Of a stretch of DNA of 64,000 bases, positions 40,744-51,533 are shown piece by piece. Each line of letters opens with the position of its first letter. Position 1 is the stretch's first letter. Position numbers and translations under genes: made by a program. The stretch comes from Microgenomates group bacterium RBG_16_45_19 (GTDB taxonomy: Bacteria > Patescibacteriota > Microgenomatia > UBA1400 > RBG-16-45-19), in assembly GCA_001803415.1 (NCBI GenBank), contig MHDC01000011.1, positions 4,642 to 68,641 of the forward strand, read 5' to 3'. The notes below the pieces were generated by a model. It was not told the origin of the DNA. It saw only the letters and a program-made list of their open reading frames with translations, and ran no database searches.

Positions 40744-42555
40744 TTAGCCTTGCGCTTGTCTGATTTTCTCTTGGGGATTGGTGGTGACTAAAACGTGTTC
40801 TTCTTTGGAAGCAACCACTCTTAAGGCGACATGGTTTTGACCGGCAAAGAAAATACCTTCGCCAATCTCCGAAGACATTAATAGCCGCTTCTCACCCTCG
40901 GACAAATAGAAAGTCTTGGCCACTTGGTCAATGGCCGCGGGCGACTGCTTCATTAAAAATTGAATCGATGAATTGGTGACTATGGCTTTACCTTGGTCAG
41001 TGGTAAGGAAATCAGACACATCCTGAGTAATGGTAGTCACTCCCAAGAAATATTTACGGGCCCGTTTGGCCATACTAAAGAGGAAGCTGGCCGATTCGGG
41101 ATATTTCATTAAATACCAGGCTTCGTCGACGACTAAGATTCTTTTCTTTAGATTTTTTTTAATCCGAGTCCAAATAAAGTCCAGAATGAGGAACATGGCG
41201 ATGGGCCGGAGGGCGTCTTCCATTTCCTTAATCCCAAAAACAGTAAACTTGTTGTGAATATCCAGGTTGGATTGCTGGTCAAAAATACCCCGGAAAGAGC
41301 CTTTGATAAATTTCTCTAAGCGGTTGGCTAAAGTTAAAGAATCAGCCGACTCCATGCCGATTAATTGTTTGTAGAGATCTTCCATTAAGGGTGGCTGTAG
41401 TTTCTGAGTTTCGGGTTCAGGGGTAATGCCTTTGGCTTGATAGGCAGCCACCAAGGCTCGATCGAGGACGGCTTCCTCATTGGCCGACATTTGGCCAAGC
41501 ATGATCTTCATTAAGGTATGGAGGGAGATGATTTTCAAGCCTAATTCATTTTCTTCGGGGTCATAGAGGGCGGATAAATCAAAGGGATTAATTTTAAAGG
41601 CCGCGTTGAAGGTGAAGTCGAGATATTCGCCATTAACGGCGGCGGTCATATCTTTGTATTCACCTTCCGGGTCGATAATGATGATTTCGGTATCAAACAT
41701 TAAAGAGCGGAGACATTCAAGTTTGACGGAATAGGATTTACCAGAGCCGGATTTGGCAAAAATAACCATGTTGGCATTCTCCATGGAGAAGCGGTCAAAA
41801 ATAACCAAAGAGTCGTTGTGCTCGTTAATACCATACATGATGCCGATATCTTGAGTTAATTCCGAGGAAGTAAAGGGGAAGGTGGTCGCTAAGGAGGTCG
41901 TATCCATGTTGCGTAAAACGTTGAGTTTATCGGTGCCTTGGGGAAGAGTGGTTTTGAAGCCCGGCTCCATTTGCAGGGAAGCCTTCTTGGAAACGATCAA
42001 CAAAGCGCCGAGCATACTTTGAATCTGCTTACTGACGGTGGTTAATTCTTCCAGAGACGGGGAGCTAATAGTGAGGTAGAGACCGAATTGAAAAAAGCGC
42101 TCTTCGCCTTTGGCCAATTGTTCTTGAAGGATACGAGCATCTTCGAGTTTGACCTGTGTGTCAATATTCGGTAGACGGCCGCGCTTGAGATCACTCTGGA
42201 TTTCGGCTTCCATTTCGGTGATCTTACGGCGCAATTCGTCCATGATGGTCTTGCCATCAACGGGAAAGATATGCATGGAAATATCCAGGGAATAATTAAA
42301 ATTAATCAGAGGTGACAGCCAGTTGGCGGAGACAAAGCGGGGATAGCCGGCGACAAAGAAGGTTTGGATATAGTAATTGCCGATCTTGAGGTGGTTGAAT
42401 TCAACGTCGATAGCTTCGGGGGCAATGACGTCTTGGATGGTAACCAGGCCTTGAACGAACAGCTCTTTAGCATCGGGTTTAGCGGCTGTAGCCGCCGGCG
42501 GGGACGGGATAACCTTTTTTTTCTTAAACGGTAGGGCGAGCAGCTTCATAGACAA
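40744..42555 (-). CDS. VirB4/TrbE-family T4SS ATPase, Gram-positive PrgJ/TcpF-like
   Basis: Walker A SGSGKSYS, IIDPEGEY, Walker B ILVVDEAWYL and RKYFLGVTTITQ. The N-terminal domain has the APEAIDV...YIQTFFVAGYP pattern. Confidence 0.7.
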   Translation of the reverse strand: MSMKLLALPFKKKKVIPSPPAATAAKPDAKELFVQGLVTIQDVIAPEAIDVEFNHLKIGNYYIQTFFVAGYPRFVSANWLSPLINFNYSLDISMHIFPVDGKTIMDELRRKITEMEAEIQSDLKRGRLPNIDTQVKLEDARILQEQLAKGEERFFQFGLYLTISSPSLEELTTVSKQIQSMLGALLIVSKKASLQMEPGFKTTLPQGTDKLNVLRNMDTTSLATTFPFTSSELTQDIGIMYGINEHNDSLVIFDRFSMENANMVIFAKSGSGKSYSVKLECLRSLMFDTEIIIIDPEGEYKDMTAAVNGEYLDFTFNAAFKINPFDLSALYDPEENELGLKIISLHTLMKIMLGQMSANEEAVLDRALVAAYQAKGITPEPETQKLQPPLMEDLYKQLIGMESADSLTLANRLEKFIKGSFRGIFDQQSNLDIHNKFTVFGIKEMEDALRPIAMFLILDFIWTRIKKNLKKRILVVDEAWYLMKYPESASFLFSMAKRARKYFLGVTTITQDVSDFLTTDQGKAIVTNSSIQFLMKQSPAAIDQVAKTFYLSEGEKRLLMSSEIGEGIFFAGQNHVALRVVASKEEHVLVTTNPQEKIRQAQG

Positions 42556-42588: not shown

Positions 42589-43023
42589 CTAAAGGGAGGG
42601 TTGATCAAGGATGCGATTAACCAAAGCGTCAGCCGCCGCATTTTGAGTTCGGGGGATAGCCGTAAAAGTGGGGGTGAGGTGAAGAAACTGTATCTTCTGG
42701 TGGACAATTAAGACCAAGTCCTTGAGGTGAGGTTGTTTGATTTTAAATCGACCGGCTAATTGGTTAACGATAAGCTGGGAATCGGAATAAAAGTTAACCG
42801 TAAAAACTGTCTGGGGAGATTCGGGAACAAACGGAGTGAGGGCGTCTAAGGCTAGAATAACGCCTTGGTATTCGGCTTCGTTGTTGGTCTGATGACCGAG
42901 AAAGCGACCACCCTGCTCGAGTATAACCCGAGTAGCGTCATAGATGAGAAAGGCGGCGGCGGCAGGACCGGGATTACTGCGAGCGGCACCGTCGGTATAA
43001 ACCGATAAAGGATAGTTAATCAT
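42589..43023 (-). CDS. rnhA: ribonuclease HI
   Basis: VYTDGAARSNPGPAAAAF...TNNEAEYQGVILAL. Confidence 0.85.
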   Translation of the reverse strand: MINYPLSVYTDGAARSNPGPAAAAFLIYDATRVILEQGGRFLGHQTNNEAEYQGVILALDALTPFVPESPQTVFTVNFYSDSQLIVNQLAGRFKIKQPHLKDLVLIVHQKIQFLHLTPTFTAIPRTQNAAADALVNRILDQPSL

Positions 43024-43481
43024 GAAGCGGTTTTAATTCCCTTGGGACTGACAATTAGGCGACGTTCCCTGGCTTCACCTTCAGAATAAGTGCTAACCCG
43101 AGGATCAGTTTGAAGTTTGAGGTGAACTTGGCGGCGTTCAAAGGCAGATAAGGGTGGAAGGATGATTTCCCGGCCAGATTCAACGGACTGATCGGCTGCC
43201 CGAGTGGCCAGCGCTTCGACTTGAGTTAAACGGAGTTGGCGATAAGCGTTGATATCCACCAGCACCGGTTTAAAGGTGGCTTGGCCCTGATTAGCCATCA
43301 AGTTAACCATTAATTGGAGGGCATCGATAGTCTCACCGTGGTAACCAATCAGAATACCAGAGTCGGCTTCGGCGACGGTGAGTCGAACTTCTTGACGATC
43401 AGCGACAGTTTTAGCCGTCAGCTTGACCGGTTCGATGGCAAAAAATTTCAAGAGTGACTTTAAAGCTTTAGTCGCGGTCAT
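43020..43481 (-). CDS. jag: Jag/KhpB (KH + R3H RNA-binding protein)
   Basis: KH-like LIGYHGETIDALQ and R3H ...LSAFERRQVHLKL. Immediately downstream of yidC. Confidence 0.8.
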   Translation of the reverse strand: MTATKALKSLLKFFAIEPVKLTAKTVADRQEVRLTVAEADSGILIGYHGETIDALQLMVNLMANQGQATFKPVLVDINAYRQLRLTQVEALATRAADQSVESGREIILPPLSAFERRQVHLKLQTDPRVSTYSEGEARERRLIVSPKGIKTAS

Positions 43482-43484
43482 AAA

Positions 43485-44237
43485 TTAAACATGGCTAGGC
43501 TGGAATCGTTTCAAGTAAATTTTAACTCGATTTAGGCCGCCCCAACCAGAGACCAAATACTGCTGAATAATACTAACGACGGTGGATACAATCCAGTAGA
43601 GGGCTAAACCGGAGGGAAAGCGGAGGGTAAAGAGGACGGTCATTAAGGGCATCATGAGGACCATCTGGTTTTGCATGGTGGTGGCCATGTCAGCCATTTG
43701 ATCGGCCTTTTGATCATCAGTTTTGGTGGGGGTAGCCAAAGCCTGGACTCTAGCGGCACTGGGGTCGGCTGCCGGTAAAACCATAAGGCTTAAAAGCAGT
43801 TGAGATAGACCAGCAATGATGGGCAAAATATAGTAGTTGTCAGGTTTAGTCAGGTCAAACCAGAGGAAGGTAGGGTCAATGCCGGTGGTACCGCCGTTAA
43901 GGTAAGTGATAAAGACCCGATAAAGAGCAATGAGGATAATAAATTGAAGCAAATAGGGGAGACAGCCGGCGGCCGGATTGATTTGATGAGTTTTGAAGAG
44001 GGCCATTTGGGCTTGCTGTAGGCCTTTGGGATCACCCTTATACTTGGCTTTTAAAGCGTCGATCTCGGGTTTTAAATCGCGCATTTTGATGGCCGAACGC
44101 ATGGCCGGCAGAGTTAAGGGAATGAGGACCGCTTTGATGCCGACAGTCAGGAGAATAATAGCCCAGCCTAAACTGCCGGTAAGGGTAGTCAGCCAAGTGA
44201 GTAGTTGGGCCAGGGGGGCGGTCAGAAAATCAAACAT
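43485..44237 (-). CDS. yidC: membrane protein insertase YidC/Oxa1 (short form)
   Basis: KMRDLKPEIDALKAKYKGDPKGLQQAQMALFK...NPAAGCLPYLLQFIILIALY. Confidence 0.9.
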   Translation of the reverse strand: MFDFLTAPLAQLLTWLTTLTGSLGWAIILLTVGIKAVLIPLTLPAMRSAIKMRDLKPEIDALKAKYKGDPKGLQQAQMALFKTHQINPAAGCLPYLLQFIILIALYRVFITYLNGGTTGIDPTFLWFDLTKPDNYYILPIIAGLSQLLLSLMVLPAADPSAARVQALATPTKTDDQKADQMADMATTMQNQMVLMMPLMTVLFTLRFPSGLALYWIVSTVVSIIQQYLVSGWGGLNRVKIYLKRFQPSHV

Positions 44238-44254
44238 ACCTAAAATAGGATCGA

Positions 44255-44283
44255 GTATTTAGTATTTAGGATTTAGGATTCAG
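44255..44283. repeat. heptamer tandem repeat block
   Basis: AGTATTT AGTATTT AGGATTT AGGATTC immediately upstream of yidC, followed by a 7-bp-stem inverted repeat (TCAGGGT-caaaaca-ACCCTGA). Confidence 0.65.
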
Positions 44284-44361
44284 GGTCAAAACAACCCTGA
44301 TTGAATCAGGCCAGACTGCAGTATAACATGGAGGACTCAAGGGGTTAATCGGGTAATCGCG

Positions 44362-45303
44362 TTAAGGTAAGGGGTCGGGCCAACCCAACTCGCTTCTGAT
44401 AACTGCCAAGGCGTGAGGATATTGGTCTGGGGTAAGTTGGTTATTTAAGACACAAGACTGTTTATTTTTTAGGCCAACACAGCCAAAACAGTCAGTACAA
44501 TTAGATAGACCGGAACTGTAATAGCAGTTGGTACATAAGCTACAGTACTCTAAAAAGGCAGAGTGATAATTACTACTGCCACCACAGATTTCGTAACATA
44601 ACTCCTGCCAGGTACCGCTGAGCATAGCTTGCAAATTTGATCCCGAAGCCGATCCACCACCAAATGAGGTGTCCCAGGAATCACGAGCCATGCCACTATC
44701 GTAGATATAACCGGAATTCTCAACATAATAAGAGTTAAAACCCCAATACATATCTTTACAGTTAGTAATATAGTCACCATACGGACAGTTTTCCGTTTGA
44801 CGCTGCATGCTCTGGGGGACCGGGGTAGACTGCTTGAGCAAAGTAAATTGAGACAAGATTTGATCAAGCGATTGTTGCTTGACGAGCTCAAGTTGTTGAT
44901 GATAGTCAGCCTGACTGAGTTGCCGATTAAAGAGACAGTATTTTTTATTAGACAGGGCGACACAGCCAAAACACGAGTCACAATTAAAACATTGATAACA
45001 ATAATGGCAATCACGACATTTGGTGCAATCTTGAGAATAGGTTAGGCGATAGCAATCGAGACATTCGATGGACTCATAACAAAGTTCAGACATGCCGCAG
45101 TAAAGGCAATCAACAAGGTGCTTTCCGTTACAAAGAAAGCAATAGCTACAAGCTTGGCTACTGAGACATAAAATACAATAATGACAATTTTGGCTATAAT
45201 GGGTGTAATCACAATATTCACATGCTTCAGGATTAGTGAGGCGTAGGGCTGGAACGGGGATTGATTGACGCAGTTGATGGTAACTGTCTAAAAATTTGGC
45301 CAT
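44362..45303 (-). CDS. extremely cysteine-rich protein with an internal duplication (unknown family)
   Basis: 313 aa with about 50 Cys in repeated CxxC(xx)C units. Two homologous halves each end C(F/T)(N/D)C(D/T)xCFGCVxLxNKxxCxxNxQL. Start codon abuts the upstream zinc-ribbon gene stop. Confidence 0.5.
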   Translation of the reverse strand: MAKFLDSYHQLRQSIPVPALRLTNPEACEYCDYTHYSQNCHYCILCLSSQACSYCFLCNGKHLVDCLYCGMSELCYESIECLDCYRLTYSQDCTKCRDCHYCYQCFNCDSCFGCVALSNKKYCLFNRQLSQADYHQQLELVKQQSLDQILSQFTLLKQSTPVPQSMQRQTENCPYGDYITNCKDMYWGFNSYYVENSGYIYDSGMARDSWDTSFGGGSASGSNLQAMLSGTWQELCYEICGGSSNYHSAFLEYCSLCTNCYYSSGLSNCTDCFGCVGLKNKQSCVLNNQLTPDQYPHALAVIRSELGWPDPLP

Positions 45304-45585
45304 TTAGACAACTTTGGTTAGATCAACCTGACTACGGAACTCTTCATAACATTTGAGACAATAGACAATCATGCCTTTGTCGGGATTAACTGTAGTCACC
45401 ATGCTCTGACCACATTTAGCGCATAGATATTTATAGAATTGGCGCTCATTTCTCAAACTAAGACGACGCTGATGACGACAGTCAGGACAATTAGTCGGCA
45501 GAGGTAAACCCATTCTCTTATAGAAAGCTAATTCCTGAGTAATGAGCTTAAACGCTTTAGAACAAGTTTGACATTTTTGCGGCAT
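45304..45585 (-). CDS. zinc-ribbon protein (two CxxC pairs x2)
   Basis: CQTC...CPDC and CAKC...CLKC. Confidence 0.5.
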   Translation of the reverse strand: MPQKCQTCSKAFKLITQELAFYKRMGLPLPTNCPDCRHQRRLSLRNERQFYKYLCAKCGQSMVTTVNPDKGMIVYCLKCYEEFRSQVDLTKVV

Positions 45586-45600
45586 ACTTAATGAGTATGA

Positions 45601-47901
45601 TTATACTATGGGTTCTTCAAAAGTGGGTTTTGAGGGTGGTTTAGGCAATCGCTGGCTGGAAATCAAATCAACCACCGGACCGGCTTGTTGAAGATATTGG
45701 GCAATTTCGGCCGGTGATTTGCCATAGCGTTGACGTGATAAGGTTTTGATCTGGGCGGCCAAATTTTTAGCGCTTGGTTTAACGGTTAAGGTGGTCGCTG
45801 AGAATGGTTCAGTGGTTTTACCGACGACAGAAAGCTTGGCGTAAACTTCACGGATATTAAGGTTGATTAAATCCGCCTGATTGACGCCGGGAGTGAATTC
45901 TTTGGCTAAAAAGGCCGCATCTTCGGGGCCGGTCCGAAAGGTGATAAAGGAGCCGACGTTACCGAAAACAGTTTTGCGAATGGCGGGAGTAAGCTGGTCG
46001 AGGTATTGATGAGCGATGGTAATGGCGAGATTAAATTTACGGGCTTCGGATAAGAGCTGGTTAAAGGAGTCGGTAGCAAAATGCTGAAATTCATCGACAT
46101 ATAAATAAAATTCCGGTCTTTGGTCTTCCGGTTGGTTAACCCGGGCCATAGTGGCTTCTTGAATCTTGGTAAGAATCATGGAGCCTAATAGAGCGGTGTT
46201 TTCTTCACCGAGTTTCCCTTTAGCAATGTTGATAACAATAATTTTGGCTTCATTCATGGCAGTGGAAAAGTCAAACGCCGACTGAGGTTGACTGACAACA
46301 TGACGGATATAATCGTTGGAGATAAATTGACCTACTTGATTAATCAGGGGAATAATGGCTTCGTTGTCGAATTTCTCGTTCCAGGCAGTAAATTCGTGGG
46401 TCCAAAAATTTTTAACCACCGGGTCTTCGAGTTGAGCAATGAGTTGATGACGATAGTCAGTTTCGGTTAATAAACGGACAATATCGATGACGGTGGTGTT
46501 TCCGACTTCAACTAGAGCCAGAACGATAAAGCGGAGGACGTGTTCGAGACGACTATTCCATTGAGCCCCAAACAATTTTTTAAAAATAGCAATAAAACCG
46601 GTCACCACTTGATATTTAGCCTCAGGGGTTTCGCAGGTGAGCGGATTAAATCCCAAGGGGTGGGTAGTATCGGAGGGATTGAAATAGATAACATCATTAA
46701 CGCGTTTTGGGGGAATATGGGAGAGAATATTTTCGGCCAAGTCACCATGAGGATCGATAACACAAAAGCCCTTATCAAAAAAGATATCGGAAAGGATGAG
46801 AAGTTCGATAAGTTTACTCTTACCCATGCCGGTTTTACCGACGATATAGGCGTGGCGGTTACGATCCCGGCGGTCCAAGCCGAATTCGAGGCTGGTTTCC
46901 CGATATAAAGTTTTACCAAAAATAGAGTGGTGGGGTTGGTCTAAAAATTGACCTTTTGGCAGATTCTGAGGCGGCGGGAGATAATTGGCGGCGACGTGTT
47001 CCAGGTTAGTAATATGTAATGAGGAATCGGGAAAATGGAAAATGGCGGCCAGTTCACGGGAATTTAAGATAAAGGGATTAGGAGAGAGGCTGCGGGCCAT
47101 AAAGCGCTGTTTGATGGCTTCAGGTTGGGATGGAGACACCACTAGGGCATTAATGTCACTCAGACTGAGTTTATCCAGGGCTTTACTGACTAAGCCAAGA
47201 TTTTCGTTGACTTCGGTAGTTGAGGGAGCAGATATGGCGACGCGAAGGTTGGCATAAAATAGTTTTGAGTCAAACTTCTGTTTGACAACTTGATAATAGT
47301 TAATCGCTTCTTTTTCAAGAAAGGGATGATGAAGAAAGCGATTCAGGTTATTTAAGGCGCCAATAATAAATGAGAATTTTTCTCGGAGAAATTGGCGCGA
47401 CCAGGATTCAGAAGTAGGTTTAAGGAGTATTTGCAGACATACCCCCTCTTCATAATGTTCGAGTTTGTTAAGGACAGCAGCCAGCATCAGATAGGGGTCT
47501 GACTGAGAGGTAAAACTAGTTTTGAGGGGGAAAAATGACGATCTTTCTAAGGTGAATTCGGTAAAGACTTGTTTTTGACCATGGACTTTAATCTCCACCG
47601 CCGCTTGAGTAATTTCGACGCGATTAAATTTAGTGTAAATTAAAGGAGTAATGACCGCGGCCAATGGCTGGGGGGCAACAATTTGAAAGCTAAAATAGTT
47701 TTCCTGTAACCAGACTTCGCAACTGATAGTGTCGGTCGGCTGATGCGGATTAAGTCGAGTCTTAGCCAACTTATGTAAATCTTCAAAAAAAGCGGTGAAG
47801 ATGGCGACGGAATTTTCAAGATCGAGGGGTGCTTTAAGGCGGAGCACCTGTTTCGGTTGGATCATGACGGTTTGGCCACCCCAGGTGGCATACGTAGCCA
47901 T
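45601..47901 (-). CDS. TraD/VirD4-like (T4CP / DUF87 HerA-FtsK-like) ATPase, no N-terminal TM
   Basis: Walker A GKTGMGKS, IDPHGDL, Walker B FYLYVDEFQHF and RKFNLAITIAHQYLDQL. Confidence 0.65.
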   Translation of the reverse strand: MATYATWGGQTVMIQPKQVLRLKAPLDLENSVAIFTAFFEDLHKLAKTRLNPHQPTDTISCEVWLQENYFSFQIVAPQPLAAVITPLIYTKFNRVEITQAAVEIKVHGQKQVFTEFTLERSSFFPLKTSFTSQSDPYLMLAAVLNKLEHYEEGVCLQILLKPTSESWSRQFLREKFSFIIGALNNLNRFLHHPFLEKEAINYYQVVKQKFDSKLFYANLRVAISAPSTTEVNENLGLVSKALDKLSLSDINALVVSPSQPEAIKQRFMARSLSPNPFILNSRELAAIFHFPDSSLHITNLEHVAANYLPPPQNLPKGQFLDQPHHSIFGKTLYRETSLEFGLDRRDRNRHAYIVGKTGMGKSKLIELLILSDIFFDKGFCVIDPHGDLAENILSHIPPKRVNDVIYFNPSDTTHPLGFNPLTCETPEAKYQVVTGFIAIFKKLFGAQWNSRLEHVLRFIVLALVEVGNTTVIDIVRLLTETDYRHQLIAQLEDPVVKNFWTHEFTAWNEKFDNEAIIPLINQVGQFISNDYIRHVVSQPQSAFDFSTAMNEAKIIVINIAKGKLGEENTALLGSMILTKIQEATMARVNQPEDQRPEFYLYVDEFQHFATDSFNQLLSEARKFNLAITIAHQYLDQLTPAIRKTVFGNVGSFITFRTGPEDAAFLAKEFTPGVNQADLINLNIREVYAKLSVVGKTTEPFSATTLTVKPSAKNLAAQIKTLSRQRYGKSPAEIAQYLQQAGPVVDLISSQRLPKPPSKPTFEEPIV

Positions 47902-47925
47902 ATTGTAACAGATCAGGGGAAAAAC

Positions 47926-48141
47926 TTAGGGCAAGAGGTCGGGGCCGGGGGCAACGCCGGGGCGGCAGCGGCTGACACGTTTAAGGCAGAGCCAACCACC
48001 CTTAATCAAACCGTAGCGTCTAAAGGCTTGGTCACAGTAATGGCTGCAACTGGGGGTAAAGCGACAACTATTGGGCGGCAGACCAAAACTTAAAAGCAGG
48101 GCCAGAAAAATGGATTTGAAAGCACGATAGAGATGAAACAT
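47926..48141 (-). CDS. yidD: membrane protein insertion efficiency factor YidD
   Basis: [19 protein letters not shown]...RCRPG. Confidence 0.85.
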
Positions 48142-48144
48142 AGG

Positions 48145-48456
48145 CTAGGGAGAAGAGGAGAGGGATTTTAAATAGTCGGTAAAGGCAGCCGGGTCGATAA
48201 CGTCAGAGGCAACCACTAACAACATGTCTTGAGCCGGCAAACCGGAGGCAAAGCGAATAAAACAACCGTGAAGTTGGCGTTTGAGGCGGTTGCGGGCTAC
48301 GGCCGATTTGAGGACCCGGTTGGGAATGATCACGGCCAAGCGCGGCCGAGCCAAGGGATTGGGACGAGTAATCAAGGTAAAGCCAGGAAAACGCTGGGTA
48401 GCGCCGGTAAAACGAGCCGCTGGTTTGAGAGGTAAACGATTGGCCCGGGGAAGCAT
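48145..48456 (-). CDS. rnpA: RNase P protein component
   Basis: VARNRLKRQL (RNR motif). Confidence 0.85.
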   Translation of the reverse strand: MLPRANRLPLKPAARFTGATQRFPGFTLITRPNPLARPRLAVIIPNRVLKSAVARNRLKRQLHGCFIRFASGLPAQDMLLVVASDVIDPAAFTDYLKSLSSSP

Positions 48457-48470
48457 GAGGCCATTATAGC

Positions 48471-48605
48471 TTAAGCCGCCAGGCGCCGACGACTCTTAAG
48501 GCGACGGTGGTGTAAGACGGACCGACCGGGTTTGGTCTTTTGGCGAGCTCTAAAGCCATGAGTTTTTTGGTAATGGCGTTTTTTGGGTTGATAAGTACGC
48601 TTCAT
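48471..48605 (-). CDS. rpmH: 50S ribosomal protein L34
   Basis: Absent from the ORF track (44 aa). Translated by hand: [44 protein letters not shown]. Confidence 0.9.
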
Positions 48606-48610
48606 AAATA

Positions 48611-48650
48611 TAATGAGCAAGGAACAAGGAACAATGAGTAATAAGTAGTA
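48611..48650. repeat. heptamer tandem repeat block
   Basis: AATGAGC AAGGAAC AAGGAAC AATGAGT AATAAGT in the rpmH-dnaA divergent spacer. Confidence 0.7.
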
Positions 48651-48713
48651 TATAGGGAGAAGCAGAGGAGAACAAGAAGGCTATATGGTTCGGGTTTTTT
48701 GGGGATTGAATAA

Positions 48714-48722
48714 TGTGGATAA
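48714..48722. promoter_or_regulatory. perfect DnaA box (TGTGGATAA = TTATCCACA) upstream of dnaA
   Basis: Exact 9-mer in the rpmH-dnaA divergent spacer. Confidence 0.5.
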
Positions 48723-48798
48723 CTTTATTAGGCTGTGTTTCACTTGCCTTTGGTTCATCCCTGGTATTGTGGTTATAACTGCCTTAAAGGATAGGGTT

Positions 48799-50184
48799 AT
48801 GGAAGTGAAGCAGATGTGGAAAATTGTATTTGAGGATTTACAAGTGTCGATGTCGAGCGCCACTTTTTCCAGTTGGATCAAACCGTTAAGTTTACAGGCG
48901 ATGGCGGCAGTCGGGGAATCGCGACTGATTGCGGACATCGTTTGCCCATCCCCGTTTCACATTAATATTGTGGAGCAACGCTATTACGCTCAGATCAAAG
49001 ATGCTTTTGATCGGGCGACAGACAAACAAACGGAACTACGCTTTAGCGTGGGCGCTACCCCAGTCAAGACAACCATCAAAACCCCCTTAGGACCACTGTT
49101 TAAAACAGCAGGTCCGAATAACGGGCTACCGACTATGGCCATGCGTCGAGTGGGGTTGCGTAAAGATTTCAATTTTGATTCCTTTGCGGTGTCCACCACC
49201 AACGAAATGGCGCATGCGGCCGCCAAGGCTGTCAAAGATCATTTTGGGGCGGCGTATAACCCCCTGTTTATTTACGGTGGGGTGGGCGTGGGTAAAACCC
49301 ACTTGATGCAAGCGATTGCCCAAGCCAGACTATATGACAAGCCACAGACAACCATGATTTATTGTATGGGGGAAGAATTTACCAATGAAATCATTGACGC
49401 CATCCAGCAAAAGACAACTCGGGACTTTAAAAAGCGTTATCGGCTAGTCAAGGGCTTGTTTATTGATGATATCCAATTTATTGCCGGGAAAACGACGGTC
49501 CAGGAAGAATTTTTTCATACCTTTAATGCCATTTTGAAGGGGGGCGGCCAAGTGGTGTTAACCAGTGACAAACCACCGCAAGAAATCCCGCAGTTGGAAG
49601 CCAGACTAAAATCCCGATTTGAAGCTGGGCTGATTGTGGATATCGGCGAACCAGACTTTGAATTGAGGACGGCGATCACTTTGATCAAAGCCAAACAGCG
49701 GCAAATCCCGATCGGGATGGCAGAGGCACAACTAATCGCCGGCAACATTGAAAGCGCCCGAAAAATCGAGGGTTTTTTAGTCAAGTTGGCAACCGAAGCC
49801 CAGATTAGAAAACACGCCGTCGACAACGCCATGATTCAAGGTATGCTGGGGAAAGAGTCCCGGCCGACCGAGGGGTCAATTCCCCCGCTAAGGCCAAATG
49901 AAATTATCCGGGGGGTAGCTAAGTATTTCGATCTACCGGCCAAAGAAATTACCGGCAGTGGGCGGGCGGCGCGGTTGGTCTTGTCCAGGCACACAGCCAT
50001 GTACCTAATGCGGATTGATTACAACTTACCGTTAACGGAAATCGGTTATTTGTTTTCTAATCGCGATCACACGACGGTAATGCACGCGGTGAATAAAATT
50101 ACCCTGGAGTTAAAAAATTCCAGTCTGATGCGAACGACTATTGGCGACTTACGGCAGCAGCTGTATGCCAGCTATAAAGCATAA
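48799..50184 (+). CDS. dnaA: chromosomal replication initiator DnaA
   Basis: AAA+ region (YNPLFIYGGVGVGKTHLMQAIA) and a C-terminal DnaA box-binding domain. Start at the ATG at 48799 (AAAGGA RBS). Confidence 0.92.
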   Translation: MEVKQMWKIVFEDLQVSMSSATFSSWIKPLSLQAMAAVGESRLIADIVCPSPFHINIVEQRYYAQIKDAFDRATDKQTELRFSVGATPVKTTIKTPLGPLFKTAGPNNGLPTMAMRRVGLRKDFNFDSFAVSTTNEMAHAAAKAVKDHFGAAYNPLFIYGGVGVGKTHLMQAIAQARLYDKPQTTMIYCMGEEFTNEIIDAIQQKTTRDFKKRYRLVKGLFIDDIQFIAGKTTVQEEFFHTFNAILKGGGQVVLTSDKPPQEIPQLEARLKSRFEAGLIVDIGEPDFELRTAITLIKAKQRQIPIGMAEAQLIAGNIESARKIEGFLVKLATEAQIRKHAVDNAMIQGMLGKESRPTEGSIPPLRPNEIIRGVAKYFDLPAKEITGSGRAARLVLSRHTAMYLMRIDYNLPLTEIGYLFSNRDHTTVMHAVNKITLELKNSSLMRTTIGDLRQQLYASYKA

Positions 50185-50402
50185 ACCGTGGAGAAACCGG
50201 GGGAAAGTAGTTGAGAGAGAGTTTAACAAGTGAATAAATTGGAGGCGGCGGCGGATAAGTGAAGAACTGTCCACCATCGTCAACCCGAGTTTTCCAGGGG
50301 CTTCAACACACCAAAACAACCCGATATAGTTGAGAGCGAAAGCGGCGATTGTCCACCTATCCACAAGACTACTACTATAGACTACTAAAATAATATAAAG
50401 AA
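50185..50402. promoter_or_regulatory. putative oriC (dnaA-dnaN intergenic)
   Basis: DnaA-box-like 9-mers cTATCCACA (50357-50365), TTGTCCACC and TGTCCACCA, followed by an AT-rich stretch (ACTACTACTATAGACTACTAAAATAATATAAAG) just before dnaN. Confidence 0.45.
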
Positions 50403-51533
50403 ATGGAGAAAAGTATGGAAATACAAGTTTTGAAAGAAAACCTGCTAAGAGCCTTAACGATTGCGGTTAAGTTTAGCGCTCAGAAAGCCCAGTTGCCGGT
50501 GTTAGCTCACGTCTTATTGGAAGCGACCAAAACCGGCATTTACCTCGCGGCGACCGACTTGGATACCGGGATTCGGTTGAGATTTGCCGGGAAAGTGGTC
50601 ATGCCAGGGTCGGTGGCCGCGCCAGCTAGGTTATTGAATGAGTACATCGGCGTGTTGCCGCTGGGGGTGGTTGAGATCAGCAGTCAAAAAGAGAAGCTGA
50701 CCGTCAAAGCCAAGGGGTCGCGGGCAACAATGCAAATTCTGGCAGACAGCGAGTTCCCTACATTTAGCCAGGCGACACCAGCAGCAAAATTGGGGGAAAT
50801 TAAGATGGTGGATTGGCTAGGGAGCTGGCAAAAGCTGGAAACAGCGGTGTCAAAAGACTTAACCAGGCCAGTCTTAACCGGAGTCTTGTGGGAGATGGGG
50901 GAGGGGCGACTGGTGGCAACCGACGGTTACCGCTTAAGCCTGGTGGAGAGGGAGGCGTTTAATTTTGAGGGGGCGAAAGAAAAGATCGTGGTTAACGGCA
51001 GTTTCTGGGGCATGTCGGCGAAAACCATGGCCGATTTACAGGTAGATACAGCCGAAATCTATTGGTTGAAACAAGAGAAGCAACTGCTGTTAAAAACCGA
51101 CGACGTGATGATGGTGGGGAGACTGGTTGAGGGAGAATTCCCTCAGTATCAAGCCATTTTACCAAAAGGTAAAAACGTGGTGGTGACCGTGGAGCGGGAA
51201 AGTTTTTTGCAGGCGGTGCGTGGGGCAATGATTTTTGCCCGTGACAGCGCTCAAATTGTGAAATTAACCATCACCAAGCAAGCGTTAATGGTGGCAGCAG
51301 CAGCCCAGAGCGGTGGGGCGGAAACGGTGCTGGCGGCTGAGCAGGAGGGGGGCGAGTTGACGACGGCCTTTAACGGCAAGTTTTTGAGTGATTTTTTAAG
51401 CCGAGGACAAAGTGAGCAGGTGACGATGGCTTTGGATGAAGCGTTAAAACCGGGAATGTTTACCGAAGTGGGGGAGAAGCAGTATCGGCACGTGATTATG
51501 CCGATTAGGCTGCGGGAGCCGGCGGCGGGCTAA
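50403..51533 (+). CDS. dnaN: DNA polymerase III beta sliding clamp
   Basis: Three-domain beta-clamp pattern. Follows dnaA. Confidence 0.9.
   Translation: MEKSMEIQVLKENLLRALTIAVKFSAQKAQLPVLAHVLLEATKTGIYLAATDLDTGIRLRFAGKVVMPGSVAAPARLLNEYIGVLPLGVVEISSQKEKLTVKAKGSRATMQILADSEFPTFSQATPAAKLGEIKMVDWLGSWQKLETAVSKDLTRPVLTGVLWEMGEGRLVATDGYRLSLVEREAFNFEGAKEKIVVNGSFWGMSAKTMADLQVDTAEIYWLKQEKQLLLKTDDVMMVGRLVEGEFPQYQAILPKGKNVVVTVERESFLQAVRGAMIFARDSAQIVKLTITKQALMVAAAAQSGGAETVLAAEQEGGELTTAFNGKFLSDFLSRGQSEQVTMALDEALKPGMFTEVGEKQYRHVIMPIRLREPAAG

What the first reader, a model, noticed from the sequence alone, without database searches (positions are those of the whole stretch)
44362..45303. 313-aa protein with about 50 cysteines in tandem CxxC/CxxCxxC units and an internal duplication
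Residues about 20-125 are almost entirely CxxC(xx)C units (CEYC, CHYCILC, CSYCFLC, CLYC, CLDC, CTKCRDC, CYQCFNCDSCFGC). The C-terminal 60 aa repeat the same module (CSLCTNC...CTDCFGCVGLKNKQSCVLNNQLTPDQY versus CYQCFNCDSCFGCVALSNKKYCLFNRQLSQADY). The two halves are separated by a Gly/Ser-rich linker. I cannot place it in a known family; it is not DnaJ-CR-like (no Gly), not ferredoxin-like (no CP) and not metallothionein-like. It could be a multi-zinc or Fe-S scaffold, a redox module or a disulfide-rich exported protein.
Basis: seen in the sequence. Interest (0 to 1): 0.68.

Follow-up and report, generated by a model that had tools for sequence, protein, structure and literature searches.

The report
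Cysteine-ladder solenoid partnering VirD4-like ATPase
This cysteine-rich gene belongs to a very large, unnamed protein family of the tiny "candidate phyla radiation" bacteria, in which cysteines mostly pack the core of a repetitive rod-like fold rather than bind metals, and the family turns out to be the habitual gene neighbour of an enigmatic VirD4-like motor ATPase whose role in these bacteria is unknown.

Summary
The ORF (44362-45303, minus strand, 313 aa) is real and intact, but it has 33 cysteines, not about 50. The cysteines sit on a strict 3-residue lattice, far beyond chance. The whole protein is a tandem duplication of a ~150-aa module. No Pfam, NCBIfam, PADLOC or PDB family matches it. 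AlphaFold gives a beta-solenoid-like fold.

Across 419 relatives most Cys columns are only 20-75% Cys and swap with Ser, Leu or Val. That is the behaviour of core packing residues, not metal ligands. Only the C-x2-C-x2-C-x8-C cap ending each module looks like a possible structural Zn site.

The family is very large and appears specific to Patescibacteria. Its usual form is a ~560-aa fusion: a double treble-clef zinc finger, two solenoid modules, a conserved linker and a second zinc finger. In this window the N-terminal finger is a separate 93-aa gene directly upstream (TAA|ATG, same frame).

Genes of the family lie in tandem arrays directly next to a soluble DUF8128/VirD4-like ATPase. That holds in 24 of 35 independently fetched ATPase loci with full flanks, and in this window. 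A TrmB-family regulator is often adjacent too.

Best reading: a non-enzymatic scaffold acting as client or adaptor of that ATPase. The function is inferred, not shown.

The parts
44362..45303 (-). Gene for the 313-aa Cys/Ser-ladder double-solenoid protein (33 Cys). It is a standalone form of the core of the zf-solenoid-zf family.
   Evidence: ORF. 284 full-length relatives. Profile search found 3640 cluster representatives. AF2 model: pLDDT 77.9, pTM 0.82, short strands every 3 residues.
44872..45303 (-). Module 1 (residues 1-144): N-terminal helix, N-cap 'E.C.Y.DY', solenoid body, cap, helix.
   Evidence: Aligns with residues 146-306 at 28% identity, E 1e-16. Secondary structure.
44386..44868 (-). 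Module 2 (residues 146-306): the same layout as module 1. It is the better-predicted half (pLDDT above 90 for residues about 231-310).
44902..44991 (-). Cap motif 1 (residues 105-134, CFNCDSCFGCVALSNKKYCLFNRQLSQADY). It contains the candidate structural metal site C108/C111/C114/C123.
   Evidence: Cys frequencies are 0.91/0.95/0.91/0.65, with His 0.14 at the fourth position. Patterns in 419 members: CCCC 232, CCCH 49.
44419..44508 (-). Cap motif 2 (residues 266-295, ..CTDCFGCVGLKNKQSCVLNNQLTPDQY). It contains the candidate metal site C269/C272/C275/C284.
   Evidence: Cys frequencies are 0.60/0.71/0.97/0.88. Patterns: CCCC 206, and 'SLCC' 58, a paired loss of the first two ligands. The same cap occurs in phage single-module relatives.
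44608..44667 (-). Gly/Ser-rich variable loop inside module 2 (about residues 213-232). It is not the inter-module linker.
   Evidence: Variable-length, gap-rich columns in the family alignment. Position relative to the module alignment.
45304..45585 (-). Gene for a 93-aa basic protein (net charge +9, pI 9.3) with two treble-clef zinc fingers (zf_Tbcl and zf_Tbcl_2, the latter of CxxC-x17-CxxC type). It is the detached N-terminal domain of the family. Its TAA stop abuts the ATG of the solenoid gene in the same frame.
   Evidence: Pfam and NCBIfam hits, borderline scores. The fused relative P0150 aligns straight through 45585..44335. Fusions shown. Charge.
45601..47901 (-). Gene for a 766-aa soluble VirD4/TraD/HerA-type P-loop ATPase. 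Its N-terminal ~330 aa aligns with ATPases on record as DUF8128. It ends 15 nt upstream of the zinc-finger gene on the same strand.
   Evidence: Pfam TrwB_AAD_bind, DUF87 and T4SS-DNA_transf. NCBIfam. No TM segment. Alignment A4. DUF8128 on record for the L094 homologue. Conserved adjacency.
44296..44310 (-). Terminator-like hairpin 52 nt after the solenoid gene's stop codon. It probably ends the ATPase-zf-solenoid transcription unit before yidC.
   Evidence: Consensus scan only. Weak evidence.

Best explanation
The gene encodes the core of a split member of a very large family that, in the data seen here, is specific to Patescibacteria.

Shown:
- The usual family member is one ~560-aa protein: double treble-clef zinc finger, two tandem Cys/Ser-ladder beta-solenoid-like modules, a conserved linker (GEWGEFFP..SPF.YNET.A..YFPL), and a second double zinc finger.
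- In this window the N-terminal finger is a separate 93-aa gene abutting the solenoid gene. The linker and C-terminal finger are absent.
- The cysteines sit on a 3-residue lattice, C-x-[D/N/G].
- Genes of the family are the habitual immediate neighbours of a soluble DUF8128/VirD4-like ATPase. They often form tandem arrays and often have a divergent TrmB-type regulator.

Inferred:
- The lattice cysteines are mainly buried packing residues of the solenoid, interchangeable with Ser, Leu or Val.
- Each module probably ends in one structural Zn site (C-x2-C-x2-C-x8-C/H).
- The basic finger protein docks on the acidic solenoid, reconstituting the fused architecture.
- The assembly is a non-enzymatic recognition scaffold that works as client (cargo) or adaptor of the ATPase. 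Its conserved finger and linker ends engage the conserved partner. Its more variable solenoid surface has been diversified by gene amplification.
For: Family size and architecture:
- 284 hits at ~300 aa, none with a Pfam domain.
- 3640 representatives at 50% clustering, many of 400-600 aa with the solenoid at about residues 100-400.
- At least 5670 clusters for the fused form.
- Fingers at both ends of the fusions.
- Median ORF of 553 aa in 81 genome loci; tandem arrays of up to about 5 genes per 9 kb.

Cysteines as core residues:
- Column statistics in 419 members.
- Cys count ranges from 12 to 38, and the query is at the 95th percentile.
- Lattice statistics.
- The most frequent separation among the 40 strongest Cys co-occurrence pairs is 12 residues, 7 of 40.

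Fold:
- AF2 models with pTM 0.82 and 0.87.
- The only, non-significant, Foldseek neighbours in both runs are left-handed beta-helix proteins.

ATPase link:
- 12-13 of 81 solenoid loci carry the ATPase, often 4-90 bp away on the same strand.
- The Beckwithbacteria locus L096 has ATPase-zf-solenoid x3, the same order as the window.
- L094 has solenoid-zf-ATPase plus TrmB.
- Reciprocal test: of 80 loci fetched with the ATPase alone, 46 carry the solenoid. Among the 35 with at least 2.5 kb on both flanks, 24 do. The median gap is 131 bp.
- One ATPase (L043) carries its own CxxC-x17-CxxC finger.

Other points:
- The finger and linker regions are more conserved than the solenoid bodies.
- CxxC-x17-CxxC small proteins of Methanosarcina mazei bind zinc (PMC12704099).
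- Patescibacteria carry about two T4CP homologues per genome, mostly far from virB4 and possibly exapted (PMC12102498).
Against: - No experiment or homology assigns any activity. 'Client or adaptor of the ATPase' rests on synteny and fusions only.
- The closest relatives, in an 894-kb Microgenomates contig, have at least 25 standalone solenoid genes, and the four loci inspected have no finger or ATPase neighbour. The solenoid can therefore apparently act without them.
- The first solenoid module is poorly predicted (pLDDT 53-70). Model coordinates could not be inspected, so the burial of the Cys lattice and the docking of the fingers are inferred from sequence patterns, not seen.
- The window protein is at the Cys-rich extreme of the family, with four lattice Cys in each of the stretches 93-102 and 105-114. 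Extra metal binding in this particular member cannot be excluded.
- About a third of ATPase loci with full flanks lack the family.
Confidence: 0.5

Rival explanations
1. Multi-metal (Zn or Fe-S) scaffold or redox module. On this reading the stacked CxxC units each ligate metal, giving a chain of metal sites along the rod.
For: - The window protein has 33 Cys and runs of eight Cys spaced by 3 (residues 93-114).
- The cap motifs are well conserved, show Cys-to-His exchange, and show paired loss of two ligands.
- The neighbouring fingers are of a type shown to bind Zn (PMC12704099).
Against: - Most Cys columns are 20-75% Cys and are replaced by Ser, Leu, Val or Ile.
- Members with only 12-18 Cys exist.
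- Body coils show no all-or-none four-Cys patterns: CCSL 76, CCCC 54, CCCS 47.
- Cys co-occurrence correlations are weak, at most 0.54.
- There is no ferredoxin, radical-SAM, DnaJ-CR or metallothionein profile hit.
Confidence: 0.12
2. [quoted passage not shown] On this reading the zinc-finger/solenoid proteins are effectors that the VirD4-like coupling protein hands to the VirB4 machine for delivery into the host bacterium. The tandem arrays would be an effector repertoire.
For: - There is tight operon linkage to a VirD4/TraD-family ATPase.
- In the window a VirB4-like ATPase lies 1.8 kb beyond the gene's 3' end (3 kb from the ATPase).
- Paralogue arrays next to a secretion ATPase are typical of substrates (general knowledge, for example type VII systems).
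- T4SS genes are important for epibiotic growth in Southlakia (as cited in PMC12102498).
- The extreme C-terminus of the fused forms is nearly invariant (..VY).
Against: - The ATPase has no transmembrane segment, unlike canonical coupling proteins.
- None of 161 family or ATPase loci has virB4 within 4-5 kb.
- Only 148 of 5713 Patescibacteria T4CP homologues lie near virB4. The Southlakia T4CP homologue was not essential, and exaptation was suggested (PMC12102498).
- All paralogues share one non-enzymatic architecture, unlike typical effector sets.
Confidence: 0.15
3. Nucleic-acid-directed module. On this reading the fingers bind DNA or RNA, and the acidic, regularly spaced D/N surface of the rod either spaces the two finger pairs or mimics DNA for the hexameric DNA-translocase-like ATPase. 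The role would be in DNA uptake, DNA processing or anti-restriction.
For: - The window finger protein is basic (+9). A conserved Arg-rich helix follows the second knuckle, and R513 and R517 stay invariant even where the Zn ligands are lost.
- The ATPase matches the T4CP DNA-binding domain, and weakly the DNA translocase CedD.
- Phage single-module relatives (CSDCSx repeats, very acidic) sit in replication or early gene modules, next to a DnaB-like helicase and a YqaJ-like exonuclease. Those identifications were made by eye from the translations.
Against: - The solenoid is only mildly acidic (median net charge -6 over about 300 aa, pI 5.7), far from known DNA mimics.
- Fold search of the full-length fusion model, fingers included, gave no significant match to any solved structure, nucleic-acid-binding or other.
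- Tandem arrays of paralogues are unusual for DNA-handling factors.
Confidence: 0.13
4. Conflict or defence system. On this reading the HerA/VirD4-like ATPase works with an array of diversified sensor proteins that recognise phage or host factors.
For: - The ATPase hits PADLOC 'mad8' (E 3.9e-13) and HerA models.
- The family forms tandem diversified paralogues with variable surfaces.
- Homologous modules occur in viral contigs, as expected in an arms race.
Against: - The PADLOC hits cover only the generic P-loop core.
- No effector domain (nuclease, Sir2, TIR and so on) recurs in the neighbourhood. Only the TrmB regulator and the ATPase recur.
- The family is near-universal and core-like in Patescibacteria. 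In the window it sits between yidD and yidC at the origin, not in an island.
Confidence: 0.08

Closest known systems
Tenebrio molitor antifreeze protein (TmAFP) type 12-residue Cys-ladder beta-helix
   Same: Inward-pointing small residues (Cys, Ser, Ala) fall at every third position of a narrow beta-helix (from memory of the TmAFP structure). Here there is a strict 3-residue Cys/Ser/Leu lattice, and stacked Cys co-occur most often 12 residues apart.
   Different: There is no sequence similarity and no Foldseek hit. TmAFP is secreted and disulfide-bonded, whereas this protein is cytoplasmic with no signal peptide. This protein has the motif C-x-[DN], not TCTxSxxCxxAx. The AF2 model also has longer strands, so the 12-residue coil is not established.
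Left-handed beta-helix (hexapeptide-repeat) proteins: LpxA/LpxD, GlmU, gamma-carbonic anhydrase
   Same: These are the only structures that Foldseek returns for both AF2 models. Both have a repetitive beta-solenoid with small or aliphatic residues stacked in the core.
   Different: The matches are not significant (E at least 0.009, TM about 0.1). There is no Hexapep Pfam hit. The inward positions here are i and i+3, not i and i+4. There is no trimer-forming acyltransferase site.
Pentapeptide-repeat proteins (Qnr, MfpA), which are beta-helical DNA mimics
   Same: A repetitive, acidic, rod-like solenoid without an enzymatic domain. This is a possible functional analogy, given a DNA-translocase-like partner.
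   Different: There is no Pentapeptide Pfam hit. The period is 3 or 6, not 5. The charge is much lower. The analogy is untested.
zf_Tbcl / zf_Tbcl_2 (TIGR04272, CxxC-x17-CxxC) treble-clef zinc-finger proteins
   Same: The 93-aa upstream protein and both ends of the fused family members match these models. Methanosarcina mazei small proteins of this type bind zinc (PMC12704099).
   Different: Those are free-standing small proteins of unknown function. Here the fingers are terminal domains of, or operon partners to, a solenoid. The window scores are borderline (26.4 bits against a cutoff of 27; 24.5 against 24).
Type IV coupling protein (VirD4/TraD/TrwB) with its substrates or adaptors
   Same: The neighbouring ATPase matches TrwB_AAD_bind, T4SS-DNA_transf and VirD4-like NCBIfam models. 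It has dedicated partner genes next to it.
   Different: The ATPase is soluble and carries a DUF8128 N-domain. The module is not near virB4 in 161 loci. The partner is neither a relaxase nor a known effector type.
phrog_15341 (phage proteins of unknown function with CxxCxx repeats)
   Same: Single-module relatives in viral contigs share the repeat lattice and the cap DCFGC..K..Y.ICNVQLTKEEY. The window protein hits this PHROG weakly (E 0.003).
   Different: The phage proteins are 90-260 aa, have one module of near-perfect CSDCSx repeats and no zinc fingers. Their function is unknown.

Membership tests
zf-solenoid-zf family of Patescibacteria (unnamed; defined here) | Two tandem ~150-aa modules, each ending in the cap C.[DN]CFGC..L..K.YC..N.Q...EEY followed by a helix | tested here: met
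   Both caps are present, at residues 105-134 and 266-295. Full-length alignments to 284 and 3640 relatives.
zf-solenoid-zf family of Patescibacteria (unnamed; defined here) | N-terminal and C-terminal double treble-clef zinc fingers in the same polypeptide | tested here: not met
   The window protein has neither. The N-finger is a separate upstream gene (45304-45585). No C-terminal linker or finger is found anywhere in the window. About 43% of the 419 sampled members are likewise bare solenoids. This is therefore a split or reduced variant.
zf-solenoid-zf family of Patescibacteria (unnamed; defined here) | Immediate neighbourhood of a DUF8128/VirD4-like ATPase | tested here: met
   The ATPase ends 15 nt upstream of the finger gene on the same strand. 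The same order is seen in L096-L099.
4Fe-4S ferredoxin-like / Fe-S cluster proteins | Conserved CxxCxxCxxxCP-type ligand sets; profile match | tested here: not met
   No Pfam or NCBIfam hit at E up to 1. The Cys columns are not conserved as sets.
DnaJ cysteine-rich domain, metallothionein, and other described Cys-rich domains | Profile match (CxxCxGxG repeats, or Cys-x-Cys clusters) | tested here: not met
   Zero Pfam families for the 313-aa protein at E up to 1. The best PDB sequence hit is a TNF-receptor Cys-rich domain at E 0.057, which is not significant.
Left-handed beta-helix (Hexapep, PF00132) proteins | [LIV]-G-x4 hexapeptide profile match; a significant structural match | tested here: not met
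Secreted disulfide-rich proteins | Signal peptide or TM anchor | tested here: not met
   The maximum 19-residue Kyte-Doolittle hydropathy is 1.25, and there is no N-terminal hydrophobic segment.
Any metal-binding protein | Bound metal | not testable with these tools
   Needs ICP-MS or spectroscopy of the purified protein.
zf_Tbcl / zf_Tbcl_2 (for the 93-aa partner) | Pfam gathering score; two CxxC pairs per finger | tested here: inconclusive
   PF13451 scores 24.5 bits against a cutoff of 24 (passes). PF23477 scores 26.4 against 27 (just below). TIGR04272 scores 24.6 against 36. All eight Cys are present in the sequence. The precomputed record for the identical protein lists PF23477.

The most novel reading that the evidence does not exclude
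The zinc-finger/Cys-ladder solenoid proteins and the soluble DUF8128/VirD4-like ATPase form a previously unrecognised ATPase-driven system. It would be specific to Patescibacteria and independent of the VirB4 type IV machinery. The hexameric motor would act on a diversified repertoire of rod-shaped scaffold proteins, for example by threading, exporting or remodelling them, or by using them as DNA-like or substrate-selecting adaptors. This would explain what the roughly two 'orphan' coupling-protein homologues per Patescibacteria genome are for.
Probability: 0.3. Interest if true: 0.85.

Novelty: new variant of a known kind. Interest (0 to 1): 0.64.

Why it matters
Patescibacteria have tiny genomes, yet they keep thousands of variants of this protein. 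One 894-kb contig has at least 25 copies, about 2.5% of its DNA. No database names the solenoid domain, and the literature searches I ran found no description of it.

A recent survey (PMC12102498) found 5713 VirD4-type coupling-protein homologues in 2918 Patescibacteria genomes. Most lie far from virB4, and the survey left their role open. The present analysis shows that a large share of one such ATPase subfamily sits directly next to this family. That gives the open question a concrete and testable partner.

The fold would also be an unusual case of a cytoplasmic solenoid whose core is built largely from a cysteine/serine ladder.

Tried and rejected
- Pfam, NCBIfam and PADLOC scans of the solenoid found nothing; PHROGs gave only a weak phrog_15341 hit (E 0.003).
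- PDB sequence searches with the single sequence and with a 113-sequence profile found nothing significant.
- Foldseek against PDB (two models) and BFVD gave no significant hit.
- Mean-field DCA on 419 sequences, meant to obtain the coil length, was dominated by gap and near-diagonal artefacts and was discarded.
- A homologue search with the 93-aa finger protein returned only 3 hits, so it gave no view of the other contexts of this finger.
- Literature searches for PF13451, DUF8128, 'treble clef' with Patescibacteria, and 'cysteine-rich' with Patescibacteria or CPR found nothing on this family.
- I considered and rejected a pseudogene or frameshift. The ORF is intact, and the split finger/solenoid arrangement is conserved in the nearest relatives (L096-L099).
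- I considered and rejected an origin- or T4SS-specific role. No dnaA, yidC or virB4 lies near the family in 161 other loci.
Full report
**Observation**

The ORF at 44362-45303 on the minus strand is intact and encodes 313 aa. It has 33 cysteines (10.5%), not about 50.

The cysteines are strikingly ordered. Cys-Cys pairs occur only at spacings of 3, 6, 9, 12 and 15 residues, and essentially never at other spacings. There are 18 pairs at i,i+3, against 3.4 +/- 1.6 expected and a maximum of 11 in 20,000 shuffles.

The lattice position is C/S/G/L/V/I. The residue before it is typically D, N, Y or G, which gives a tripeptide unit C-x-[D/N/G].

Residues 1-144 align end to end with residues 146-306 (28% identity, E 1e-16). 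The protein is therefore two copies of one module, laid out as follows:
- an N-terminal helix;
- an 'E.C.Y.DY' start;
- the repeat body;
- a cap, C.[DN]CFGC..L.NK..C..N.QL....Y;
- a closing helix.

The Gly/Ser-rich stretch (about residues 213-232) is a variable-length loop inside module 2, not the inter-module linker.

The public annotation of this gene (243 aa) starts at an internal Met. Relatives align from the first residues of the 313-aa form.

**No described family matches**

- Pfam, NCBIfam and PADLOC return nothing meaningful for the 313-aa protein.
- PHROGs gives only a weak hit to phrog_15341, whose function is unknown.
- PDB sequence searches with the single sequence and with a 113-sequence profile are empty.

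The AlphaFold2 model (pLDDT 77.9, pTM 0.82) consists of short strands and isolated bridges every three residues, plus helices at 2-14, 131-159 and 294-306. Module 2 is confident (above 90) and module 1 is not (59-70).

**What the cysteines do**

I aligned 419 family members to the profile and tabulated every Cys column.
- Most columns are 20-75% Cys. The replacements are Ser first, then Leu, Val or Ile.
- The number of Cys per solenoid ranges from 12 to 38. The window protein (33) is at the 95th percentile.
- In the body coils there is no all-or-none pattern. At positions 93/96/99/102, for example, the commonest patterns are CCSL 76, CCCC 54 and CCCS 47.
- Cys presence at different positions correlates only weakly (at most 0.54). 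The most frequent separation among the 40 strongest pairs is 12 residues.

This is how buried packing positions of a solenoid behave, not how obligate metal ligands behave.

The exception is the cap of each module.
- C108/C111/C114 are 91-95% Cys, and the fourth position (123) is Cys 65% and His 14%.
- In cap 2, C275 and C284 are 97% and 88% Cys. C269 and C272 are lost together, as 'SLCC' in 58 members.

One structural Zn per cap is a reasonable inference for the window protein, in which both caps are CCCC. It is not shown. The protein has no signal peptide or hydrophobic segment, so it is not an exported disulfide protein.

**The family and its real architecture**

The window comes from Microgenomates bacterium RBG_16_45_19.
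- The family has 3640 representatives at 50% clustering with E up to 1e-3, and 1240 with E up to 1e-30.
- A genome scan found at least 574 loci. Nearly all of the best 80 are labelled as Patescibacteria lineages: Microgenomates, Peregrinibacteria, Gracilibacteria, Saccharibacteria, Nomurabacteria, Berkelbacteria, Kerfeldbacteria and others.
- Many representatives are 400-600 aa long, with the solenoid at about residues 100-400.
- Their ends carry zf_Tbcl or zf_Tbcl_2 treble-clef zinc fingers.
- In 81 genome loci the median family ORF is 553 aa.
- A search with one fusion found at least 5670 clusters. All were named 'hypothetical' or 'zinc-ribbon domain containing protein'.
- Between the solenoid and the C-terminal fingers lies a conserved linker, GEWGEFFP..SPF.YNET.A..YFPL.
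- The finger and linker regions are more conserved than the solenoid bodies and the inter-module helices.
- An AF2 model of a fusion is confident overall (pLDDT 86.7, pTM 0.87) except for module 1.

In the window, the 93-aa ORF directly upstream (45304-45585) has two such fingers, is basic (+9), and ends with TAA abutting the solenoid's ATG in the same frame. A fused relative aligns straight across the junction. The window therefore carries a split form, N-finger gene plus solenoid gene, and lacks the linker and C-finger, which are found nowhere in the window.

The same split is seen in the nearest relatives (L096-L099), so it is not a pseudogene. CxxC-x17-CxxC small proteins of Methanosarcina mazei have been shown to bind zinc (PMC12704099).

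**Arrays**

Family genes commonly form head-to-tail arrays of up to about five genes in 9 kb. In the closest Microgenomates relatives the bare solenoid has multiplied. At least 25 distinct paralogues lie on one 894-kb contig, and the copies located lie at four separate sites, as singles or pairs.

**Conserved neighbours**

Clustering all ORFs of the 81 loci gave only two recurrent neighbours:
- a VirD4/TraD/HerA-type ATPase in 12-13 loci, almost always on the same strand and often 4-90 bp away;
- a divergent TrmB-family regulator in 12 loci.

In the window the 766-aa ATPase (45601-47901) ends 15 nt before the finger gene. It matches TrwB_AAD_bind, DUF87 and T4SS-DNA_transf, and VirD4-like NCBIfam models. 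It has no transmembrane segment. Its N-terminal ~330 aa aligns with ATPases on record as DUF8128.

Annotated contigs show the same partnership.
- In a Beckwithbacteria contig the order is ATPase, finger gene, then three solenoid genes.
- In L094/L095 the order is solenoid, finger gene, DUF8128-ATPase, with TrmB and two further solenoid genes nearby.

One ATPase (L043) carries a CxxC-x17-CxxC finger at its own C-terminus.

As a reciprocal test, I fetched 80 metagenome loci using only the ATPase.
- 46 carry a solenoid gene and 47 a finger.
- Of the 35 loci with at least 2.5 kb on both sides, 24 (69%) have the solenoid.
- The median distance from the ATPase to the nearest family hit is 131 bp, and 38 of 46 are within 300 bp.

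The link to this ATPase subfamily is therefore robust and spans deep lineages.

**Relation to type IV secretion and the origin**

In the window the ATPase-finger-solenoid unit sits between yidD and yidC, next to rnpA, dnaA and dnaN. A VirB4-like ATPase (CD1110 family) lies 1.8 kb beyond the solenoid gene's 3' end. This fits the report that Patescibacteria T4SS genes often lie near dnaA (PMC12102498).

However, none of the other 161 loci has virB4, yidC or dnaA within 4-5 kb. The same paper notes that only 148 of 5713 T4CP homologues lie near virB4. It also notes that the Southlakia homologue was not essential, and that exaptation is possible. The module is therefore best seen as independent of the VirB4 machine, with the window being the exception.

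**Viral relatives**

Twelve IMG/VR contigs encode single-module relatives of 90-260 aa. They have near-perfect CSDCSx repeats and the same cap (DCFGC..K..Y.ICNVQLTKEEY). They belong to phrog_15341, whose function is unknown. In the loci inspected, the neighbouring ORFs look like replication or early genes: a DnaB-like helicase and YqaJ-like and Cas4-like nucleases, as I read the translations by eye.

**Interpretation**

Shown:
- the lattice and the whole-protein duplication;
- the family, its fused architecture and the split in the window;
- the arrays;
- the ATPase and TrmB synteny.

Inferred:
- The lattice cysteines are core residues.
- Each cap holds one Zn.
- The basic finger protein docks on the acidic solenoid (net charge -11).
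- The assembly is a non-enzymatic scaffold serving the ATPase as client or adaptor, with conserved ends for the conserved partner and a variable surface diversified by amplification.

I give this 0.5 overall. The structural and genomic parts are well supported. The functional part is weakly supported.

The rivals each keep some probability and are separated by the experiments listed under next steps:
- a multi-metal scaffold;
- T4SS cargo;
- a nucleic-acid-directed or DNA-mimic module;
- a defence sensor array.

**Novelty**

The zinc fingers and the ATPase belong to known superfamilies, and beta-solenoids are a known kind of fold. The Cys/Ser-ladder solenoid domain has no named family. Its fusion with treble-clef fingers is not described in the sources I could search, and neither is its systematic pairing with the DUF8128/VirD4-like ATPase. 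I rate it a new variant of a known kind, with a realistic chance that the ATPase-plus-solenoid pair is a new system.

Noticed in passing
window 45601-47901 (-): A 766-aa soluble VirD4/TraD/HerA-type ATPase with an N-terminal ~330-aa domain (DUF8128 in relatives) and no transmembrane helix, unlike canonical type IV coupling proteins. It is the conserved partner of the solenoid family.
   Followed up: yes
window 40744-42555 (-): A VirB4-like conjugal-transfer ATPase (NCBIfam CD1110 family, 383 bits against a cutoff of 325). It lies 1.8 kb beyond the 3' end of the finding, in the origin region. This matches the reported placement of Patescibacteria T4SS genes near dnaA.
   Followed up: partly
window 42589-51533: A classical origin-region gene order, with the ATPase-finger-solenoid unit inserted between yidD and yidC. 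The order is dnaN, dnaA | rnpA, yidD, [ATPase, zf, solenoid], yidC, khpB/jag, RNase H.
   Followed up: yes
window 45301-45306: The finger gene's TAA stop is immediately followed by the solenoid gene's ATG in the same reading frame. In most other lineages the two are one polypeptide. Termination-reinitiation coupling or occasional readthrough is conceivable.
   Followed up: partly
window 44362-45303 (-): The public annotation of this gene (A2W24_00325, 243 aa) starts at internal Met71 and so omits the first 70 residues, including three CxxC-bearing coils.
   Followed up: yes
L043 5431-7593: A homologue of the ATPase carries its own C-terminal CxxC-x17-CxxC finger (CWNCGKKTTVPFKPDGKRPVYCLTC), followed by a long low-complexity tail.
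   Followed up: no
L082-L093 (IMG/VR contigs), e.g. L089 4962-5717: Viral contigs encode single-module relatives made of near-perfect CSDCSx repeats plus the family's cap motif (phrog_15341). In the loci inspected the neighbouring ORFs look like replication or early genes. Some (L091, L092) have a different C-terminal domain (phrog_31265).
   Followed up: partly
L001-L004 (contig CAWGXL010000011.1, 894,453 bp): At least 25 distinct bare-solenoid paralogues lie on one Microgenomates-like contig. The four loci inspected (six copies) lie far apart and have no finger or ATPase neighbour. One pair has a divergent TrmB regulator (L002).
   Followed up: partly
L089 6983-7438 (-): An ORF made of tandem 'CPQFVAL' heptapeptide repeats, reflecting a 21-bp tandem DNA repeat in the viral contig. 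It is probably not a gene.
   Followed up: no
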